This document shows positions 1,692-12,630 of a stretch of DNA of 13,133 nucleotides, piece by piece. The translations under genes and the position numbers were made by a program. This DNA is from a virus (taxonomy: Duplodnaviria; Heunggongvirae; Uroviricota; Caudoviricetes). The notes under the pieces were generated by a model that ran no database searches, was not told where the DNA came from, and saw only the letters and a program-made list of their open reading frames with translations. Each line of letters starts with the position of its first letter. Positions within the stretch are counted from its first letter, which is position 1. The stretch is taken from the IMG/VR virus record IMGVR_UViG_3300022821_000011, positions 1-13,133 of that record; one strand, written 5' to 3'.

Positions 1692-1877
1692 TTATGTATT
1701 GACATTATCACATAGAGAGGATAATGTCAACCTTATTTGATCATTGACTTGATTTCTAACTTGTCTAATTATTTTATCCCAAGATTGGTTATCAAGTTTA
1801 TCGTTAGTATATTCCCAAACATGTTCCCAAACATGTTCTTCTACTCGATTTTGTATTTGAAGCTTTACATAAAACAT
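1692..1877 (-). CDS. Dispersed member of the QV/W-repeat micro-protein family; C-terminus reads through a promoter palindrome
   Basis: HVWEHVWE...QVRNQVNDQIR resembles 6767-6916 (QVRFQVNDQIR); residues LTLSSLCDNVN are encoded by the palindrome; weak SD. Confidence 0.65.
   Translation of the reverse strand: MFYVKLQIQNRVEEHVWEHVWEYTNDKLDNQSWDKIIRQVRNQVNDQIRLTLSSLCDNVNT
1699..1730 (-). promoter_or_regulatory. Palindromic promoter element, copy 3
   Basis: Identical to copy 2. Confidence 0.85.
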
Positions 1878-4813: not shown

Positions 4814-5104
4814 TTAAGTCTTATCAGTTATATAGTCCAGGATCGCAAGTATTGCAATGCTCGCGGCTGCAATTACTAGTGCGAATATTGCGAAAAAGAC
4901 CACTATCGCAATAATAGCAAGGTATATCCCTACTATTAGCCCAACGACTGCCGCCGCCGCTGCTAGGCCATATCCGAATATAGCTGATATGGATATAGCG
5001 ACTGGTGGTATAGCTATCGATACGAGCGCTATGATTGCGCACGCGGCCCCGACTGTTGCTCCGATGGCCATGATTTTTTCGTTTTCAACTTTCAACTTTT
5101 TCAA
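4814..5104 (-). CDS. Small Ala/Ile/Gly-rich membrane protein (2-3 TM segments)
   Basis: About 75 consecutive almost entirely hydrophobic residues; TTG start overlaps upstream TGA (TTGA), or ATG at 5071. Confidence 0.7.
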   Translation of the reverse strand: MKKLKVENEKIMAIGATVGAACAIIALVSIAIPPVAISISAIFGYGLAAAAAVVGLIVGIYLAIIAIVVFFAIFALVIAAASIAILAILDYITDKT

Positions 5105-5202
5105 CTTTCAACTTTCCGAGATCTTGCGCGCCTCGAGAACTGGTTCGAGCCGAGAGATCTCTCGTGTGCCACGGCGTCTGATTTAATTGTTTCGTAGACC
5201 AT
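5101..5202 (-). CDS. Putative 33-aa basic peptide (MVYETIKS...RRARSRKVES)
   Basis: First ATG after promoter 5245-5273; stop overlaps TTG of the membrane ORF; no clear SD. Confidence 0.35.
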   Translation of the reverse strand: MVYETIKSDAVAHERSLGSNQFSRRARSRKVES

Positions 5203-5273: not shown

Positions 5274-5316
5274 TAGGATATTTTAATAAGGTATGTCTTT
5301 TTCAACTTTTAGATTT

Positions 5317-5484
5317 TCAACTTTTAGATATAGTTTGAATTAAAATTTGAGATGTTATACTACTGAAAATATTATAAGTTGGTGTAAATAAATTATTATA
5401 ATGATAATAATTAGATTGGTCTATAACTTTATGAAAGACTCTATTTCTTATTGCAATATGTATTTCGTGTCTTTTGTTTTTCAT
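5317..5484 (-). CDS. 55-aa micro-protein, last gene of the coupled chain
   Basis: MKNKRHEIH...QTISKS*; ATG overlaps TGA of 5481-5750 (ATGA). Confidence 0.6.
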   Translation of the reverse strand: MKNKRHEIHIAIRNRVFHKVIDQSNYYHYNNLFTPTYNIFSSITSQILIQTISKS

Positions 5485-5750
5485 GTTAAATAATTCTTTA
5501 TTCGATTTTCGACTTGAAACCTGGCTTGAGTCCTGACTTGATCCCTGACTTGAATCCAGACTTGACCCCTGACTCGAGTCCTGACTTGAATATCGACTTG
5601 ATTCCAGACTTGATCCCTGACTTGAGTCCAGACTCGATTCCTGACTTGATTCCCGACTTGAATATCGACTTGATTCTCGATTTGATTCCAGACTTGATTC
5701 CAGACTTGACCCCTGACTTGAGTCCAGACTTGATCTCTTAAACTTTTCAT
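5481..5750 (-). CDS. QVxx-repeat micro-protein R1 (89 aa)
   Basis: [16 protein letters not shown]...; ATGA-coupled at both ends. Confidence 0.8.
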
Positions 5751-5920
5751 ATCAAAGCATTCCTGACTTGATTCCTGGCTTGAGTCCAGACTTGATCCCT
5801 GACTTGAATCCAGACTTGAGTCACGACTTGAGTCCAGACTTGATTCTCGATTTGATTCCAGACTTGAATATCGACTTGAATATCGACTTGATATTTGATC
5901 TGATTCCTTAAAGCTTTCAT
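5747..5920 (-). CDS. QVxx-repeat micro-protein R2 (57 aa)
   Basis: Hand-translated MKALRNQIKYQVDIQVDIQVWNQ...QVRNALI*; ATGA-coupled. Confidence 0.8.
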   Translation of the reverse strand: MKALRNQIKYQVDIQVDIQVWNQIENQVWTQVVTQVWIQVRDQVWTQARNQVRNALI

Positions 5921-6126
5921 TTTAATATATCTCTAATTTGATCTTTGATTTGATTCAAGACTTGATTCCAGACTTGATTCCAGACTTGAGTCCAGACTTG
6001 ATTCTCGATTTGATTCCAGACTTGATCCCTGACTTGAATATCGACTTGAGTCCAGACTTGATCCCTGACTTGAATCCAGACTTGACCCCTGACTTGAGTC
6101 CAGACTTGATCTTTTAAACTTTTCAT
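5917..6126 (-). CDS. QVxx-repeat micro-protein R3 (69 aa)
   Basis: MKSLKDQVWTQ...QIRDILK*; ATGA-coupled. Confidence 0.8.
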   Translation of the reverse strand: MKSLKDQVWTQVRGQVWIQVRDQVWTQVDIQVRDQVWNQIENQVWTQVWNQVWNQVLNQIKDQIRDILK

Positions 6127-6284
6127 TTTAAAGAATTCCTGACTTGATTCCCGACTTGAGTCACGACTTGATTCATGACTTGATTCTCGATTTGATTCCA
6201 GACTTGATGCCTGACTTGATTCATGACTTGAATCTCGACTTGATTCCAGACTTGAATATCGACTTGATCTCTTAAACTTTTCAT
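6123..6284 (-). CDS. QVxx-repeat micro-protein R4 (53 aa)
   Basis: [23 protein letters not shown]...QVRNSLK*; ATGA-coupled. Confidence 0.8.
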   Translation of the reverse strand: MKSLRDQVDIQVWNQVEIQVMNQVRHQVWNQIENQVMNQVVTQVGNQVRNSLK

Positions 6285-6454
6285 ATCAAAGCATTCCTGA
6301 ATTGAGTCCCGACTTGATTCTCGACTTGATTACAGACTTGATTCTCGATTTGATTCCAGACTTGATGCCTGACTTGATTCATGACTTGAATCTCGACTTG
6401 ATTCTCGATTTGATTCCAGACTTGATTCCAGACTTGAACTCTTAAACTTTTCAT
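6281..6454 (-). CDS. QVxx-repeat micro-protein R5 (57 aa)
   Basis: [19 protein letters not shown]...QFRNALI*; ATGA-coupled. Confidence 0.8.
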   Translation of the reverse strand: MKSLRVQVWNQVWNQIENQVEIQVMNQVRHQVWNQIENQVCNQVENQVGTQFRNALI

Positions 6455-6600
6455 ATCAAAGCATTCCTGACTTGATTCCTGACTTGAATCGTGATTTGAT
6501 TTCCGACTTGATTCCAGACTTGATTCTCGATTTGATTCCAGACTTGAGTCCAGACTTGACCCCTGACTTGAGCATCGATTTGAATCCTTATAGCTTTCAT
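6451..6600 (-). CDS. QVxx-repeat micro-protein R6 (49 aa)
   Basis: MKAIRIQIDAQVRGQVWTQ...QVRNALI*; ATGA-coupled. Confidence 0.8.
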   Translation of the reverse strand: MKAIRIQIDAQVRGQVWTQVWNQIENQVWNQVGNQITIQVRNQVRNALI

Positions 6601-6770
6601 TTTAATATATCTCTAATTTGAACATTAACTTGAAACCCGACTTGATTCCAAACTTGATTTTCGACTTGACTCCAAACTTGACTCCTAACTTGATTCCAGA
6701 CTTGAGTCCCGACTTGATTCCCGACTTGAGTCATGACTTGATTCATGACTTGATTTTTTATATTTTTCAT
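6597..6770 (-). CDS. QVxx-repeat micro-protein R7 (57 aa)
   Basis: MKNIKNQVMNQVMTQVGNQ...QIRDILK*; ATGA-coupled. Confidence 0.8.
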   Translation of the reverse strand: MKNIKNQVMNQVMTQVGNQVGTQVWNQVRSQVWSQVENQVWNQVGFQVNVQIRDILK

Positions 6771-6916
6771 TTCAAATTATTTCTTATTTGATCATTAACT
6801 TGAAACCTAACTTGAATCTCAACTTTAATCCATACATGAACCTCAACTTTATTCCATATTTGATATCCAGCCAAGTCCCATAATTGATAATCAACTTTAT
6901 CGCTTAAACTTTTCAT
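6767..6916 (-). CDS. Diverged repeat micro-protein R8 (49 aa)
   Basis: MKSLSDKVDYQLWDLAGYQIWNKVEVHVWIKVEIQVRFQVNDQIRNNLK*; TAATG-coupled to upstream gene. Confidence 0.8.
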   Translation of the reverse strand: MKSLSDKVDYQLWDLAGYQIWNKVEVHVWIKVEIQVRFQVNDQIRNNLK

Positions 6917-7287
6917 TATTTTTTCTTAGTGAAATCCACTGCAATCACTGTAGCTCCCTCTGAAGAGGTTTCGTTTTTTTGTTGTGGTTTTACCCTCCTA
7001 ACATTTTTACGATGGCTCTTCATCTTCTCTATTTCCTCTTCTGGTACTCCAGATAATGATGCCATGGCTGAGAAATCTTGATCATCTATCAAATCCTGAA
7101 TTTTTTCTCTTATTGTGTCACAATTATTAAGTTTTATAATATGATCTTTGATAAAAAAAACAAGATTGCCTCGTTCTATTTCAAATTCTTCTTGTGTTAA
7201 ATCCGTAGTAACTATTAAAAATCTTATTATAATATTTTCAAATACCAGTGGTAAACTGTCTTTAAATTTCTCAAAATCTTCATTCAT
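6916..7287 (-). CDS. Hypothetical protein (123 aa)
   Basis: GGAG SD; coupled at both ends. Confidence 0.85.
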   Translation of the reverse strand: MNEDFEKFKDSLPLVFENIIIRFLIVTTDLTQEEFEIERGNLVFFIKDHIIKLNNCDTIREKIQDLIDDQDFSAMASLSGVPEEEIEKMKSHRKNVRRVKPQQKNETSSEGATVIAVDFTKKK

Positions 7288-7445
7288 TTATAATCTCCAA
7301 TTGAATTATTTAAATTAATACATATAGGTCTTAAATTAATATTATTTGTATGAAAAAGCCCATATAACGAATAATTCAAATAACATATATTCACACGATT
7401 TGCGGTTGTTATAGATTTCATACTTTCGTCATAATGATATTTCAT
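7284..7445 (-). CDS. 53-aa micro-protein (MKYHYDES...)
   Basis: Hand-translated; ATGA overlaps at both ends. Confidence 0.6.
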   Translation of the reverse strand: MKYHYDESMKSITTANRVNICYLNYSLYGLFHTNNINLRPICINLNNSIGDYK

Positions 7446-7615
7446 ATTAATTTATCTCCCATAGAAACTCTTAACATTTGGCGGCGCATGTTTTCAAAAA
7501 AATCATTATCTGGTTTAATAGATATAATTATAAAATTTTTATCAAACCCACGAATGTTTTCATCCAACGGATGTTTTACATTAAGTATCATTTTAGTAAA
7601 ACGATATTTTTTCAC
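7442..7615 (-). CDS. 57-aa micro-protein (GTG start, KKYRFTK...)
   Basis: AGGAG SD 6 nt upstream; ends in ATGA overlap. Confidence 0.6.
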   Translation of the reverse strand: MKKYRFTKMILNVKHPLDENIRGFDKNFIIISIKPDNDFFENMRRQMLRVSMGDKLI

Positions 7616-7616
7616 A

Positions 7617-7778
7617 TCACTCTCCTAATGAATGTAATTTACTGTTTAATGAAATATTTAATATATTGGTATGATACAAAGCAAGAATATAGCTATGATA
7701 ATTATCAGTTATCCATGGTCTATTATAATAATAAAAGCTCGAAGTAGTTCTGTTAATATTTGCGTAATGTGGTTTCAT
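7617..7778 (-). CDS. 53-aa Tyr-rich micro-protein, paralogue of 7775-7948
   Basis: SSFYYYNRPWITDNY motif; ATGA-coupled. Confidence 0.65.
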   Translation of the reverse strand: MKPHYANINRTTSSFYYYNRPWITDNYHSYILALYHTNILNISLNSKLHSLGE

Positions 7779-7948
7779 AATAATCTCATTATTGTTAATT
7801 TATGAATAGTCATACTTATTATATCTAATATTGGCTCCTCAATAATCAACTGTGTAAGATAGATATAATAATCATCAGTCATCCATGGCGCATTATAATA
7901 ATAATAACTACTTTCTTTTTCTGTTAAGTCATGTTTATAAGATTTCAT
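7775..7948 (-). CDS. 57-aa Tyr-rich micro-protein
   Basis: SSYYYYNAPWMTDDY motif. Confidence 0.65.
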   Translation of the reverse strand: MKSYKHDLTEKESSYYYYNAPWMTDDYYIYLTQLIIEEPILDIISMTIHKLTIMRLL

Positions 7949-7960
7949 GATACATTTTCT

Positions 7961-8118
7961 TTATTTTTGTTTTATTTGATTCATAATTTGAGCTGCAACT
8001 CTATCCCAAACTTGTATTGTGACTTTATTCCAAATTAGAGCTCCGGCCTGATCCCAGTTTTTCATACTAATTTTATTCCAAAGGTGAGCTGTGGATTTGT
8101 TCCAAATTTTTTTTTCAT
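7961..8118 (-). pseudogene. Octad W-repeat micro-protein, out of frame at an A9 tract
   Basis: ATG-A9-TTTGG; with A10 it reads MKKK-IWNKSTAH-LWNKISMK-NWDQAGAL-IWNKVTIQ-VWDRVAAQ-IMNQIKQK*. Confidence 0.6.
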
Positions 8119-8271: not shown

Positions 8272-8619
8272 TTAGTCTTCTACGCGCTTCCAACCTTCAG
8301 GAGTATATTCACGCTGACGACGGACCTGATAAGTACCGGCTTCAAAGAGAATAGGCTCATGAGTATCATTACCACGAAGATGCTCAAGCATAGATGGTTC
8401 GTTAACAACCAACAGGCAATTCATAATATCGTCTGGAAGGTTGTACATTTCAACCTGACCGTTCTTGGCTTCCATAACATGATTATGGCCTGTTTCAGAA
8501 TGAGTCACAATCAAGTAACCATTTTCTGTATCAACCTTGGTTGCTCCTTCAGGAACGCCATCTTCAACTCGGCGAATATAAATATCGCCCTGTGCAGCAA
8601 AATTCTTAAAAGTTTTCAT
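8272..8619 (-). CDS. His-rich beta-type protein (QGD...HSETGHNH...EH...H...RQREY), probable metal-binding partner of DUF6745-like proteins
   Basis: Motifs seen directly; co-occurrence with DUF6745-like genes is from memory. Confidence 0.8.
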   Translation of the reverse strand: MKTFKNFAAQGDIYIRRVEDGVPEGATKVDTENGYLIVTHSETGHNHVMEAKNGQVEMYNLPDDIMNCLLVVNEPSMLEHLRGNDTHEPILFEAGTYQVRRQREYTPEGWKRVED

Positions 8620-8640: not shown

Positions 8641-9606
8641 TTAAGTTCTAATTTCTGGTATTACAAATTCATTTACATCCATTCCCCAGGTCCATGACTG
8701 TGCTTGAATAGCAGTAGCCATTTCTGGTGGTACTGGAAGAGCAAAAAAGCGCCCTGTACCACATTTCACCCTAAGGAATTTTTCAGGAGTTGGCTCATCA
8801 CCTTCTCCGTTTGGAAGCATGACTTCAAGAAGTGTGCCAATTTCTGGATCGCCATCTTCATCAATGATCTTAGCCTTCAATTCATTAAGAATCGAATCCC
8901 AACCGATCATTTCACAAGCAGCTCTTCGCTGTTCGATATTGGACCATTTCACAGCTTCAGCTGCGGATGGCAGAGAGTCTTCAATCCATTCAGAAGGAAT
9001 AGACACGCCATGATAAAAATATAGTGACCAGCCGTCTCTATAACTTACAGCAGCAGAAGTTTCTGAATGAAGGCGAGCTTCTTCATCAAGAAAAATAGAA
9101 GTTGGACGCTCAGTAATTATAGCAATGCCTTCAAATGGCCACCACCAACCGGCAGATTTAGCAATTTCCATGACACCACGAAGCTTTTCTACTTCTTCTA
9201 CAAGACCTTCAAAAACTGAATAAAATGAAAGCCATCCAGCTTCAAATTGGCCATAAAGAGCATCAAAAACATCATAAAGATCGCTCTTTTTTACTCCAAG
9301 TTTTTTGGAGCAAATGTTAGCATCAAAATTATTATCCATAAGAATTTTAATTTTACGCTGACAGTCTTCAATAGTATTAGAGTCTCGACAAACGGCCGCA
9401 ACCATACTACCCTGGTATGGAGAATCTACCCACACCTTAACTTCTGGTGGTGAAAGATCGGCAGCTTTATATGCCAAATCAACACCCTTTTCAGCTCTTT
9501 CTCGATCAGCAGGCTCGGTACTCAAACCGATTTTAATCCACTCATCTCGAATTTCTGGAAACCTATCGATAACTTCCTGTGGAAGTTTTGTAATTTTATC
9601 GCTCAT
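8641..9606 (-). CDS. DUF6745-like protein (321 aa)
   Basis: EWIKIGLSTEPADR...VWVDSP; YGQFEAGWLSFY; GWWWPFE...ERP; RLH...YRDGW..YFYHGV; C-terminal CGTGRFFALPVPP...AQSWTWG match my recollection of the family. Confidence 0.75.
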   Translation of the reverse strand: MSDKITKLPQEVIDRFPEIRDEWIKIGLSTEPADRERAEKGVDLAYKAADLSPPEVKVWVDSPYQGSMVAAVCRDSNTIEDCQRKIKILMDNNFDANICSKKLGVKKSDLYDVFDALYGQFEAGWLSFYSVFEGLVEEVEKLRGVMEIAKSAGWWWPFEGIAIITERPTSIFLDEEARLHSETSAAVSYRDGWSLYFYHGVSIPSEWIEDSLPSAAEAVKWSNIEQRRAACEMIGWDSILNELKAKIIDEDGDPEIGTLLEVMLPNGEGDEPTPEKFLRVKCGTGRFFALPVPPEMATAIQAQSWTWGMDVNEFVIPEIRT

Positions 9607-9652: not shown

Positions 9653-9691
9653 ACTATAATCTATTCTAGTTTAAATGTCAACAACTATTTT
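9653..9691 (-). promoter_or_regulatory. Sigma70-type promoter with AAAATAGTTG upstream element
   Basis: TTGACA-N17-TATAGT; 16 bp AAAATAGTTGTTGACA identical to 10159-10174. Confidence 0.75.
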
Positions 9692-10215: not shown

Positions 10216-11079
10216 TTACTTCTTACCCTTGTTGTTCCTTATACAGGTAATATTTGCCATCCGCTGCCACATATCAGGGTGTGATTTACGAAGGATACCG
10301 ATCTTAATTGCCATACGAAGAGACAATTCACGAAGCTTCTTAATATTGTCTTCGATATAATCGACAACTTCTTTTTGTTCCAAGAAATCAAGACCCTGAT
10401 TGGCCAAAAGACCCTGTGCAACTACCTGTTTAATTCTCACCATATAATCCCGGCGAGTCTTCATATCCAAATCTACATAATGAGACCGAGAAATAAGAGC
10501 CTGAAGATGAGGAGCAATCTTATTGTTTGAATCAATATACTTATCAAAATCAGTATTAGTGATAAAGATAATAGTGCCTTCAAAGATAAAAGTCTTAGGA
10601 ATATTTTGAGCACTATTCTCATCAAACAACTTAGTTTCAGCAAGATAAGAAACTCGTCGAGTTTCAGTCGTATCGCATACAGCCTTAAGCATATTCAATG
10701 CTGTATCATTAAAGAAAATCGAGTCAGCATCATCAAAAACGATAACATTTCCTGGTTTACGATGTTGGAACAACAGTTTATAAAGACCCGTTGCTCGAAC
10801 ATAACCCTTAATGATGGTGTATCGATCACCAGACGGGTCCCAGTCTTCGAGTTCTTTTTCTACAGTGTAAGACTTACCAAGACCGGCAGGTCCTGAGACA
10901 ATAAGAGCCTTGGTCTTACCCGAAATAGCTGTTCTCGCAAGATACTCAAGAATTTCAAATCGTTCAGACAGCTTTTTGAAAATATCAGCGTCTGACTCAT
11001 TTGTGTCTGGCAAAAACCCACCCACATTCAATTCTGCTACTTCGTTTTTCTTTTTGCGTTCATAAACTCCGCGTGGCAT
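10216..11079 (-). CDS. AAA+-type P-loop ATPase (287 aa)
   Basis: Walker A GPAGLGKS, Walker B VIVFDDAD, sensor-1-like FITN, Arg-finger-like ALISRS. Confidence 0.85.
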   Translation of the reverse strand: MPRGVYERKKKNEVAELNVGGFLPDTNESDADIFKKLSERFEILEYLARTAISGKTKALIVSGPAGLGKSYTVEKELEDWDPSGDRYTIIKGYVRATGLYKLLFQHRKPGNVIVFDDADSIFFNDTALNMLKAVCDTTETRRVSYLAETKLFDENSAQNIPKTFIFEGTIIFITNTDFDKYIDSNNKIAPHLQALISRSHYVDLDMKTRRDYMVRIKQVVAQGLLANQGLDFLEQKEVVDYIEDNIKKLRELSLRMAIKIGILRKSHPDMWQRMANITCIRNNKGKK

Positions 11080-11468: not shown

Positions 11469-11544
11469 TGGTGCGCGCAGTGAGACTCGAACTCACACTG
11501 GACAGATTTTAAGTCTGGTGCCTCTGCCATTGGGCTATGCGCGC
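11469..11544 (-). tRNA. tRNA-Leu(UAA), 76 nt, short variable loop
   Basis: Acceptor GCGCGCA/TGCGCGC, A73, encoded CCA; anticodon loop CT-TAA-AA; T arm GTGAG-TTCGAGT-CTCAC. Confidence 0.9.
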
Positions 11545-12554: not shown

Positions 12555-12630
12555 TGGAGAGACCGAGAGGAATCAAACCTCCACCTCATGGCTTTGCAGG
12601 CCAGCGCATTTATCGTTTTGCTACGGTCTC
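12555..12630 (-). tRNA. tRNA-Cys(GCA), 76 nt
   Basis: Acceptor GAGACCG/CGGTCTC, U73 (Cys identity), encoded CCA; anticodon loop CT-GCA-AA. Confidence 0.85.

What the first reader, a model, noticed from the sequence alone, without database searches (positions are those of the whole stretch)
5481..6916. Tandem array of eight translationally coupled QVxx-repeat micro-proteins: candidate combinatorial peptide library
Seen: eight consecutive minus-strand ORFs (89, 57, 69, 53, 57, 49, 57, 49 aa), seven joined by exact ATGA overlaps, with short conserved caps (MK-S/A/N-L/I...; RNALI, RDILK, RNSLK) around a variable number of 12-bp units CAA-GTC-xxx-xxx drawn from a small vocabulary (WN, WT, WI, RD, RG, RN, EN, DI, GN, MN, VT, RH) in different orders. 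Junction types recur (ILK/MKA at R7-R6 and R3-R2; NALI/MKS at R6-R5, R5-R4 and R2-R1), and homogeneity rises from diverged R8 to R6-R1. Preserved frames and coupling argue for translation. Inference: an accordion-like locus where unequal recombination reshuffles both units and whole genes to make variable 4-residue-periodic peptides, e.g. decoys or inhibitors of host defence. The ORF track shows only two of the eight.
Basis: partly seen in the sequence, partly recalled or inferred. Interest (0 to 1): 0.88.

Follow-up and report, generated by a model that had tools for sequence, protein, structure and literature searches.

The report
Tandem tetrapeptide-repeat mini-genes beside phage DUF6745
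Eight back-to-back tiny genes of an uncultured T4-like phage each encode one long helix made only of Gln-Val-x-x repeats. They are the free-standing form of a fast-changing repeat normally built into an unstudied phage protein (DUF6745), their number and repeat order differ between near-identical strains, and their function is unknown.

Summary
There are eight minus-strand ORFs (49-89 aa) at 5481-6916 with seven ATGA overlaps, built from about 103 copies of a 12-bp unit.

The constant Gln-Val codons and the third position of the second variable codon are 88-99% uniform; the third position of the first variable codon is G in 81% of units. Variation sits in first and second positions of the two variable codons.

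The array is not an orphan.
- A DUF6745 gene that lacks the family's usual internal tetrapeptide array lies 1.7 kb upstream on the same strand, followed by its conserved His-rich partner.
- In 80 IMG/VR DUF6745 loci, Gln-Val mini-genes accompany 31 of 59 array-less genes but 1 of 21 array-bearing ones.
- 139 of the 149 best library matches to the mini-protein profile that I screened carry the DUF6745 C-domain.
- Gln-Val is kept across lineages with different codons, which argues for selection on the protein.

Contigs of 98.7-100% identical strains show the same eight genes three times, and also a three-gene version and chimeric genes. The proposed accordion behaviour is therefore supported, with a short-read caveat.

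The mini-protein folds as one helix. A co-fold with the DUF6745 core gave only weak support. Function is unknown; counter-defence is an inference by analogy with Tweety gp54.

This scan already reported the same class on other DNA and on this genome. I found no paper on it.

The parts
6767..6916 (-). R8, 49-aa mini-gene. It is the most degenerate copy, with mixed K/H/Q-V tetrads.
   Evidence: Its start overlaps the stop of the 123-aa ORF (TAATG).
6597..6770 (-). R7, 57-aa mini-gene, 12 Q-V/I tetrads, ends ILK.
   Evidence: Identical in all six strain contigs, except for a frameshift at its end in L173.
6451..6600 (-). R6, 49-aa mini-gene. Its start supplies the 5' part of the chimeric third gene in strain contigs L169 and L171.
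6281..6454 (-). R5, 57-aa mini-gene.
   Evidence: It has one Gly-to-Arg change at a variable position in L172, and an extra R5-like copy follows there.
6123..6284 (-). R4, 53-aa mini-gene.
5917..6126 (-). R3, 69-aa mini-gene. It was the query for the fold and the searches.
   Evidence: Predicted as one helix over residues 4-68, pLDDT 91.3. It is fused with the end of R2 into a 73-aa gene in L172.
5747..5920 (-). R2, 57-aa mini-gene.
5481..5750 (-). R1, 89-aa mini-gene, the longest (20 tetrads). Its end supplies the 3' part of the chimeric gene in L169.
5317..5484 (-). 55-aa non-repeat ORF coupled by ATGA to the end of R1. It served as the downstream anchor of the array.
   Evidence: the identical protein occurs in 17 contigs
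6916..7287 (-). 123-aa ORF of unknown function directly upstream of the array. It served as the upstream anchor for strain comparison.
   Evidence: The identical protein occurs in at least 23 contigs. A homologue of 132 aa in relative L009 is not followed by an array.
7961..8065 (-). 34-aa degenerate mini-gene (tetrads with W-N/W-D and Q/K/R-V/I) just downstream of the partner gene. It may be a relic copy.
8272..8619 (-). 115-aa His-rich partner of DUF6745 (HSETGHNH and THEP motifs), phrog_27831.
   Evidence: A homologue lies next to DUF6745 in 74 of 80 IMG/VR loci. PHROG hit. The Atlas structural match to a 366-aa DUF6745 cluster suggests fused forms exist.
8641..9606 (-). 321-aa DUF6745 protein that lacks the internal tetrapeptide array.
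   Evidence: PF20530 E 1.5e-34. It is the only copy in the 116-kb record. In relatives the array sits just before the YG-x-HDA-x-WL motif, and nothing is there in this protein.
9653..9681 (-). Sigma-70-like promoter match (TTGACA-17-TATAGT, 11 of 12) upstream of DUF6745. No minus-strand terminator match occurs between here and the end of the array.
   Evidence: consensus scan only
1692..1877 (-). 61-aa degenerate paralogue of the mini-genes elsewhere in the window.

Best explanation
The eight ORFs are real, translated genes of an uncultured T4-like phage. Each encodes one long alpha-helix made only of Gln-Val-x-x tetrads, in which Gln-Val is constant and the other two residues are hypervariable.

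They are the free-standing (trans) form of the hypervariable tetrapeptide array that most DUF6745 proteins carry internally. In this phage the DUF6745 gene has no array. It lies upstream on the same strand with its His-rich partner, probably on the same early transcript.

The locus diversifies in two ways:
- gain, loss and reordering of 12-bp units and of whole genes by slippage and unequal recombination;
- point changes confined to four nucleotides per unit.

Inferred, not shown: the helices dock on the DUF6745-partner core as alternative variable elements, and the system acts in phage-host or phage-phage conflict, as the unrelated tetrapeptide-repeat protein gp54 of mycobacteriophage Tweety does.
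For: Anatomy:
- ATG starts, MK caps and 4-nt stop-start overlaps, with the register kept from start to stop.

Unit statistics over 94 units:
- CAA in 93, position 6 is C in 83, position 9 is G in 76, position 12 is T in 93.
- Positions 7, 8, 10 and 11 are highly variable, so nearly all variation changes the amino acid.
- This is the pattern described for Tweety gp54 (PMC2884959).

Protein-level constraint:
- In 74 other loci Gln-Val is encoded by CAA or CAG combined with GTC, GTT, GTA or GTG. The codons differ between lineages and are nearly uniform within an array.

Reading frame:
- The mini-protein profile finds 2,161 representative proteins.
- 139 of the 149 best matches screened carry the DUF6745 C-domain, where the flanking domains fix Q-V-x-x as the translated frame.

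Link to DUF6745:
- The window's DUF6745 lacks the array that relatives carry before the YG-x-HDA-x-WL motif.
- In an independent sample of 80 DUF6745 loci, 31 of 59 array-less genes have Q-V mini-genes in the flank, against 1 of 21 array-bearing genes. Fisher p = 7e-5, but the loci are not phylogenetically independent.
- At least seven more array-less loci have mini-genes of other tetrad types.
- The partner gene is present in 74 of 80 loci.

Structure:
- The mini-protein is one helix, pLDDT 91.3.
- In a cis-array DUF6745 the core is confident and the array is a lower-confidence helix.

Co-fold of the window's DUF6745 with R3:
- Verdict 'weak support': score 0.55 (runs 0.54, 0.55, 0.63), best control 0.00.
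- The runs agree in at least 90% of their contacts, and the partner's pLDDT is at least 70.
- The mark was reached by 58 of 80 solved complexes and 2 of 110 mismatched pairs. At 0.60 or under it was reached by only 7 of those 80 and by both mismatches.
- My own alignments were used, so these counts hold only roughly.

Strain variation:
- The same 8-gene array occurs in L168 and L170.
- L169 has a 3-gene array with unique flanks on both sides.
- L171 and L172 carry chimeric genes.
Against: - There is no direct evidence of transcription or translation.
- Shine-Dalgarno matches before the starts are weak (AGGA about 10 nt upstream, or AGAG).
- The closest DUF6745 subfamily (317-321 aa: L009 and L089-L093) has neither an internal array nor Q-V mini-genes in the stretches fetched. 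The core can therefore exist without any array, and the mini-genes may act independently of it.
- Similarity between low-complexity repeats is weak proof of common descent.
- The co-fold support is weak.
- Strain variants come from short-read metagenome assemblies. Several contigs end inside the array, so some variants could be chimeric.
- DUF6745 has no known function, and no solved fold resembles it. The counter-defence role rests on analogy only.
Confidence: 0.6

Rival explanations
1. The mini-proteins are real but work on their own. They might self-assemble into helical bundles or fibres, or bind a host target directly. Their nearness to DUF6745 would then reflect only shared origin of the repeat or a shared hyperplastic genome region.
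For: - The nearest relatives of this DUF6745 subfamily have no array and no mini-genes in the stretches fetched.
- Four paralogues lie 4-12 kb from the DUF6745 gene.
- Several mini-gene clusters in IMG/VR had no DUF6745 in the fetched stretch: L012, L044, L066, L079, L082.
- A Val/Trp stripe on a 50-90-residue helix would need burial somewhere.
Against: - The distribution is complementary: 31 of 59 array-less loci have mini-genes, against 1 of 21 array-bearing loci.
- 139 of the 149 best profile matches that I screened are DUF6745 proteins.
- The co-fold score was 0.55 against a best control of 0.00. This is weak support: the mark was reached by 58 of 80 solved complexes and 2 of 110 mismatched pairs, but at 0.60 or under by only 7 of those 80 and by both mismatches.
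- Most clusters without DUF6745 lie near contig ends.
Confidence: 0.22
2. The region acts mainly as DNA: a dense cluster of GANTC (or GATC) sites, iterons or protein-binding repeats. The ORFs would be incidental.
For: - There are 63 GANTC sites in 1,436 bp (43.9 per kb), against 3.5 per kb in the rest of the genome.
- The six constant bases of the unit and the third position of the second variable codon are 88-99% uniform, which DNA-level constraint would also give.
- The opposite strand is also open, as (D-L-x-P)n ORFs.
Against: - GANTC density is under 5 per kb in 42 of 74 related arrays, and 14 have neither GANTC nor GATC. The site is therefore a by-product of the codons NNG-AAT-CAA.
- Gln-Val is conserved with different codons across lineages.
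- The same frame is fixed by flanking domains in cis arrays.
- ATG/MK caps and stop-start overlaps recur in unrelated lineages.
- The plus-strand ORFs start with TTG and have no conserved ends.
Confidence: 0.05
3. The ORFs are decaying fragments of a once-internal DUF6745 array, that is, pseudogene debris with no function.
For: R8, the 34-aa ORF at 7961-8065 and the ORF at 1692-1877 are degenerate copies. One strain contig has a frameshift at a junction (L173).
Against: - Eight intact frames have uniform caps and coupled junctions.
- The same junction sequence is reused at a locus 12 kb away.
- Intact multi-gene clusters of the same design occur in many lineages, up to 13-14 genes.
- The 8-gene haplotype is identical in independent samples.
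Confidence: 0.05
4. The array, or its variation between contigs, is an assembly artefact of short reads over repeats.
For: Many contigs start or end inside the array: L171, L172, L173, L175, L177. The assemblers used k-mers shorter than the gene-length repeats.
Against: - The full 8-gene array was assembled identically in the window, L168 and L170, from different samples and sources.
- L169 differs from the window by 13 mismatches in its upstream flank and by 62 mismatches with 14 gap openings downstream. Its chimeric gene has a unit order absent from the window, so it is another strain and not a collapse.
Confidence: 0.08

Closest known systems
Internal tetrapeptide array of DUF6745 proteins (Pfam PF20530; phrog_31813), function unknown
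   Same: - Same tetrad (Gln-Val plus two variable residues drawn from W/R/G/E/D and N/D/A/T/S).
- Same 12-bp unit design, and a helical prediction.
- Same neighbourhood: DUF6745 core plus His-rich partner.
- 139 of the 149 best matches to the mini-protein profile that I screened are DUF6745 proteins.
   Different: - Here the array is not inside the protein. It is split into eight (twelve genome-wide) separate genes with their own start, MK cap and stop, and the DUF6745 gene has no array.
- The mini-proteins do not match the Pfam model, which covers the C-domain.
Mycobacteriophage Tweety gp54 (also Che8 gp57 and PMC gp51): tetrapeptide-repeat, mutationally tunable counter-defence protein (PMC2884959, PMC9262239)
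   Same: - 12-bp units with two constant and two variable residues.
- Third codon positions invariant and variation at unit positions 7, 8, 10 and 11.
- Repeat number differs between related phages.
- Located among early or accessory genes.
   Different: - The constant pair is Ala-Ala, not Gln-Val.
- It is a single 374-aa protein with unique N- and C-terminal domains.
- It has no Pfam hit, and hhalign against the DUF6745 alignment gives probability 0.1%.
- Its proposed mechanism, spacing of two end domains, cannot apply to peptides without end domains.
Free-standing tetrapeptide mini-gene clusters in other uncultured phages (IMG/VR loci L018/L105, L046, L081/L139, L104, L143, L144, L149)
   Same: - Tandem, often overlapping 50-100-aa genes starting MK(L)KS-V/L-K/R-x-QV.
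- They lie next to an array-less DUF6745 of 281-295 aa and the partner gene.
   Different: - Those DUF6745 cores belong to the short 281-295-aa form. The window's 321-aa form has a non-repeat insert at the array site.
- C-terminal caps differ between lineages.
- Some lineages use Gln-Leu, Arg-Val or Ala-Thr as the constant pair.

Membership tests
DUF6745-associated free-standing tetrapeptide mini-genes (undescribed class, defined here and in earlier notes of this scan) | The protein consists only of tetrads with two constant and two variable residues, encoded by 12-bp units whose variation lies in first and second codon positions. | tested here: met
   94 units; CAA 93/94, position 12 T 93/94, positions 7, 8, 10 and 11 variable.
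DUF6745-associated free-standing tetrapeptide mini-genes (undescribed class, defined here and in earlier notes of this scan) | An array-less DUF6745 gene and the His-rich partner lie nearby on the same strand. | tested here: met
   DUF6745 at 8641-9606 and partner at 8272-8619. The array starts 1.35 kb downstream of the partner.
DUF6745-associated free-standing tetrapeptide mini-genes (undescribed class, defined here and in earlier notes of this scan) | The mini-protein physically binds the DUF6745 core. | tested here: inconclusive
   weak support. Score 0.55, best control 0.00. The mark was reached by 58 of 80 solved complexes and 2 of 110 mismatched pairs, but at 0.60 or under by only 7 of those 80 and by both mismatches. 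No interface was reported.
Pfam DUF6745 (PF20530) domain | A match to the Pfam model above its gathering score. | tested here: not met
   none of the eight mini-proteins matches PF20530. The neighbouring 321-aa protein does (119.5 bits against a cut-off of 27).
Tweety gp54 family (tunable counter-defence) | Unique N- and C-terminal domains flank the array. | tested here: not met
   the mini-proteins have only a 2-6-residue cap at each end, whereas gp54 has about 140 and about 45 flanking residues.
Tweety gp54 family (tunable counter-defence) | Sequence relatedness to gp54. | tested here: not met
   gp54 has no Pfam hit, and hhalign against the DUF6745 alignment gives probability 0.1%.
Tweety gp54 family (tunable counter-defence) | Unit design with invariant third codon positions and variable positions 7, 8, 10 and 11. 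| tested here: met
   compared with the description in PMC2884959.
Tweety gp54 family (tunable counter-defence) | A change of repeat number retunes escape from a host or prophage defence. | not testable with these tools
   This needs plating of variants on defended hosts.
Diversity-generating retroelement (DGR) variable protein | A reverse transcriptase and template repeat in the genome, with adenine-specific variation. | tested here: not met
   no RVT_1 match in the 116-kb record (61% complete, so absence is not proven).: variable positions mix T/A/G and G/A/T, which is not adenine-specific.

The most novel reading that the evidence does not exclude
The twelve mini-proteins are interchangeable, trans-acting specificity helices. 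They dock on one DUF6745-partner core, giving the phage a multi-allelic recognition repertoire. This repertoire is reshuffled by unit and gene recombination within a population. It would be a protein-level cassette library for escaping or inhibiting host or prophage defences, and it would be widespread in uncultured phages.
Probability: 0.25. Interest if true: 0.85.

Novelty: new variant of a known kind. Interest (0 to 1): 0.62.

Why it matters
Tetrapeptide-repeat proteins whose repeat number tunes counter-defence are known from one experimental case, Tweety gp54. This locus belongs to a much larger family:
- thousands of DUF6745 proteins (802 relatives of the window's own);
- hundreds of free-standing mini-gene clusters;
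- no paper found for it in the full-text library searched.

This locus shows the most extreme form, in which the variable element is released as many separate genes that differ between near-identical strains.

If the helices are alternative partners of a common core, this would be a new way for phages to generate and carry recognition diversity. It is directly testable by pull-downs, deletion, and plating on laboratory hosts that carry different defence systems.

Tried and rejected
Searches on the eight mini-proteins:
- Pfam gave only sub-threshold low-complexity matches, for example DUF4816 at up to 21 bits against a cut-off of 29.4.
- PHROGs gave only phrog_5189 at E about 1e-3.
- PADLOC gave nothing credible.

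Searches in other collections:
- Megablast of the whole window against 50,697 phage records hit only a tRNA-Cys.
- tblastn against the same records found DUF6745 only in one uncultured Caudoviricetes record and in Mycobacterium prophage prophiGD102-1 gene 38.
- The search for related loci with the 123-aa neighbour in IMG/VR found nothing.
- The genome search on the record of relative L009 failed because that record is not held.

Fold of DUF6745:
- No PDB sequence relative.
- Foldseek against PDB gave nothing better than E 0.3.
- VIA-align against 48,161 chains gave a best Z of 4.3 over 68 residues.
- The AlphaFold DB clusters returned mostly DUF6745 or unnamed entries, plus rows auto-annotated as 17 kDa surface antigen or LRR proteins.
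- No functional clue came from any of these.

Hypotheses considered and set aside:
- DGR: no reverse transcriptase found, and variation is not adenine-specific.
- GANTC or GATC site cluster as the primary function: not conserved across lineages.
- Plus-strand (D-L-x-P)n ORFs as the coding frame: they have TTG starts, lack conserved caps, run against the direction of all neighbours, and the cis arrays fix the Q-V frame.

Literature searches for DUF6745 and PF20530 found nothing.
Full report
**Observation**

The window is the first 13,133 bp of a 115,719-bp IMG/VR virus record with GC 31.6% and an estimated completeness of 61%. Earlier notes of this scan describe the record as T4-like.

Between 5481 and 6916 the minus strand carries eight ATG ORFs of 89, 57, 69, 53, 57, 49, 57 and 49 aa. 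Each overlaps the next by ATGA.
- The 123-aa ORF 6916-7287 ends TAATG on the start of the first mini-gene.
- The last mini-gene overlaps a 55-aa ORF (5317-5484) by ATGA.

Tandem Repeats Finder reports a 12-bp period with 102.8 copies over 5511-6755, and gene-length periods of 158 and 170 bp.

Every protein reads MK, one cap tetrad ([S/A/N][L/I]xx), then (Q-V-x-x)n, then x-L-[I/K/T]. The 4-residue register holds from start to stop.

Four further paralogues lie at 1692-1877, 13240-13440, 18661-18774 and 18771-18956. A 34-aa degenerate copy lies at 7961-8065.

**Is it coding?**

Over 94 Q-units the composition is as follows:
- The constant codons are almost invariant, including their third positions: CAA in 93 of 94 units, and position 6 is C in 83 of 94.
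- The third positions of the two variable codons are nearly fixed: position 9 is G in 76 of 94, and position 12 is T in 93 of 94.
- Positions 7, 8, 10 and 11 are highly variable.

Almost all variation therefore changes the amino acid. The same pattern was described for the (A-A-x-x)48 array of mycobacteriophage Tweety gp54 (PMC2884959).

In 74 related arrays from IMG/VR, Gln-Val is encoded by every combination of CAA or CAG with GTC, GTT, GTA or GTG. The codons differ between lineages and are nearly uniform within an array. That is the signature of concerted evolution of the DNA under selection for the peptide.

In proteins where the array is internal, the conserved flanking domains fix Q-V-x-x as the translated frame. 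MK-type caps and overlapping stop-start junctions recur in unrelated lineages.

Shine-Dalgarno matches are weak, and there is no expression data. Translation is strongly inferred but not shown.

**Context**

The 321-aa ORF 8641-9606 lies on the same strand 1.7 kb upstream. It is a DUF6745 protein (PF20530, E 1.5e-34) and the only one in the record. Directly after it comes a 115-aa His-rich ORF, 8272-8619 (phrog_27831).

The window's DUF6745 has 802 relatives at E <= 1e-5. Of the 120 listed relatives, 52 show a strong internal (x-x-Q/S-V)n array, placed just before the conserved YG-x-HDA-x-WL motif. The window's protein has a non-repeat insert at that site.

I ran three independent tests of the link between mini-genes and DUF6745.

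1. Searching IMG/VR with the mini-protein alignment returned 79 loci.
   - In about 49 of them the matched array lies inside a DUF6745 protein.
   - 13 are clusters of mini-genes.
   - Seven of those clusters sit beside an array-less DUF6745 and/or the partner.

2. Searching IMG/VR with the DUF6745 alignment returned 80 loci.
   - 21 have an internal array, and only one of these has Q-V mini-genes nearby.
   - 59 have no array, and 31 of these have Q-V mini-genes in the flank. Fisher p = 7e-5, not corrected for relatedness.
   - At least seven more array-less loci have mini-genes with other constant pairs: Q-L, R-V or A-T.
   - The partner is present in 74 of the 80 loci.

3. The mini-protein profile matches 2,161 representatives in a library of 1.84 billion proteins. 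139 of the 149 best matches that I screened carry the DUF6745 C-domain.

Two points weaken the link. The closest DUF6745 subfamily (L009 at 82% identity, and L089-L093) has neither an array nor mini-genes in the stretches I hold. The core can therefore exist without any array.

**Variation between strains**

The 123-aa neighbour occurs letter for letter in at least 23 contigs from many samples.

| Contig | Identity to window | Array |
|---|---|---|
| L168 | 99.98% | same eight genes |
| L170 | 100% | same eight genes |
| L175, L177 | >99.9% | same downstream genes (partial contigs) |
| L169 | 99.7% upstream, 98.7% downstream | three genes: R8, R7 and a 69-aa chimera |
| L171 | 99.8% | same chimera start, a different end, then further genes |
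| L172 | 99.1% | R3 fused to the end of R2 (73 aa), then an extra R5-like copy, plus a Gly-to-Arg change |
| L173 | 99.98% | frameshift at one junction |

Further detail on L169:
- It is flanked by unique DNA on both sides.
- The chimera begins like R6, ends like R1, and has a unit order of its own in between.
- The array is 522 bp, against 1,432 bp in the window.

The relative L009 keeps DUF6745, the partner and the 123-aa homologue, but has unrelated small ORFs where the array would be.

The caveat is that all of these are short-read assemblies, and several contigs break inside the array.

**Structure**

R3, folded with its paralogues as the alignment, is one continuous helix over residues 4-68 with pLDDT 91.3.

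A DUF6745 with an 11-unit internal array folds with pLDDT 88.9 and pTM 0.78. The N- and C-terminal parts are confident. The array is a helix of low confidence, 55-66.

On an ideal alpha-helix a 4-residue period advances 40 degrees per tetrad. Each of the four positions therefore traces a shallow right-handed stripe that completes a turn in about nine tetrads (my arithmetic). A Val/Trp stripe of this kind needs a partner surface.

A co-fold of the window's DUF6745 with R3 gave 'weak support':
- The score was 0.55 (runs 0.54, 0.55, 0.63), with a best control of 0.00.
- The runs agree in at least 90% of their contacts, and the partner's pLDDT is at least 70.
- The mark was reached by 58 of 80 solved complexes and 2 of 110 mismatched pairs.
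- At 0.60 or under it was reached by only 7 of those 80 solved complexes and by both mismatches that passed.
- My own alignments were used, so these counts hold only roughly.

DUF6745 has no solved relative by sequence or fold.

The partner's Atlas model matches a 366-aa DUF6745 cluster with TM 0.76 by the query over 102 residues. This hints that fused forms exist.

**DNA-level rival**

The array has 43.9 GANTC sites per kb, against 3.5 per kb elsewhere in the genome. This follows from the codons NNG-A(A/C/T)T-CAA. 42 of 74 related arrays have fewer than 5 per kb, and 14 have neither GANTC nor GATC. The site cluster is a by-product, not the conserved feature.

No reverse transcriptase is present in the held record, and the variation is not adenine-specific. 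A DGR is therefore unlikely.

**Mechanism**

Shown:
- The gene anatomy.
- The restriction of variation to four nucleotides per unit.
- Conservation of the tetrad at the protein level across lineages.
- The complementary cis/trans distribution with DUF6745.
- Structural variation between near-identical strains.

Inferred:
- The peptides are translated as single helices.
- They work with the DUF6745-partner core as alternative variable elements.
- The system serves in conflict with host or prophage defences.

The last point rests on three things: analogy with Tweety gp54, where changes in repeat number restore growth on a defended host (PMC9262239); the location among small early-type genes; and a strong promoter-like site upstream of DUF6745 with no minus-strand terminator match before the array ends.

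gp54 is not related to DUF6745. It has no Pfam hit, and hhalign gives a probability of 0.1%. Its proposed spacer mechanism cannot apply to peptides that have no end domains.

**Novelty**

This scan has already reported the class on other DNA: 75 notes in at least 62 genomes mention DUF6745 tetrapeptide repeats. It has also reported the paralogous arrays of this same genome.

I re-tested those leads independently. I also added the strain haplotypes of this locus, the cis/trans statistics, the other tetrad chemistries and the co-fold.

Full-text searches for DUF6745 and PF20530 found no paper.

I class the finding as a new variant of a known kind, namely hypervariable tetrapeptide-repeat phage proteins. 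Its function is unknown.

Noticed in passing
window 7284-7948 (-): Four small tandem ORFs of 53-57 aa lie between the partner gene and the 123-aa ORF. At least two share a YYYN-x-PW-x-TD-x-Y motif. A homologue with the same motif is present in relative L009 (12338-12526).
   Followed up: no
L146, L148, L167 (A-T-x-x); L135, L141 (Q-L-x-x); L136 (R-V-x-x): Mini-gene clusters beside array-less DUF6745 genes use other constant pairs than Gln-Val, while the variable vocabulary stays similar (W/R/G/E/D/S/Y and N/D/T/S). The constant pair is therefore lineage-specific.
   Followed up: partly
window 8272-8619 (-): The Atlas model of the His-rich partner aligns over 102 residues (TM 0.76 by the query) with a cluster of 366-aa DUF6745 proteins. 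This suggests partner-DUF6745 fusions exist.
   Followed up: no
window 5521-6820: GANTC sites are 12.7-fold enriched in the array (63 sites). This follows from the codons NNG-ANT-CAA and is absent from most related arrays.
   Followed up: yes
window 11469-11544 and 12555-12630 (-): These are tRNA-Leu(TAA) and tRNA-Cys(GCA) genes. The tRNA-Cys is 91% identical over 55 nt to the tRNA-Cys of Xanthomonas jumbo phages X1 and BUDD, which was the only megablast hit of the window in the phage collection.
   Followed up: no
window 5082-5116 and 5299-5329: Short tandem TTTTCAAC-type repeats (16-bp and 15-bp units, two copies each) lie downstream of the array, on either side of a promoter-like site at 5273-5245 (-).
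   Followed up: no
window 4814-5104 (-): This 96-aa ORF is very hydrophobic and rich in Ala, Ile and Val, so it is probably a membrane protein. It has a 91-aa counterpart in relative L009 (13931-14206), which marks the far boundary of the variable segment.
   Followed up: no
L173:5371-5610: In one strain contig that is otherwise 99.98% identical, a 1-nt gap at the R7/R6 junction removes the stop, and translation would run into the Ser-rich alternative frame. This is either a sequencing error or a natural frameshift variant.
   Followed up: no
window 10216-11079 (-): This 287-aa ORF has weak AAA/P-loop matches and a strong phrog_1250 hit (E 1.3e-82, unknown function). It is conserved upstream of DUF6745 in L009 as well.
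   Followed up: no
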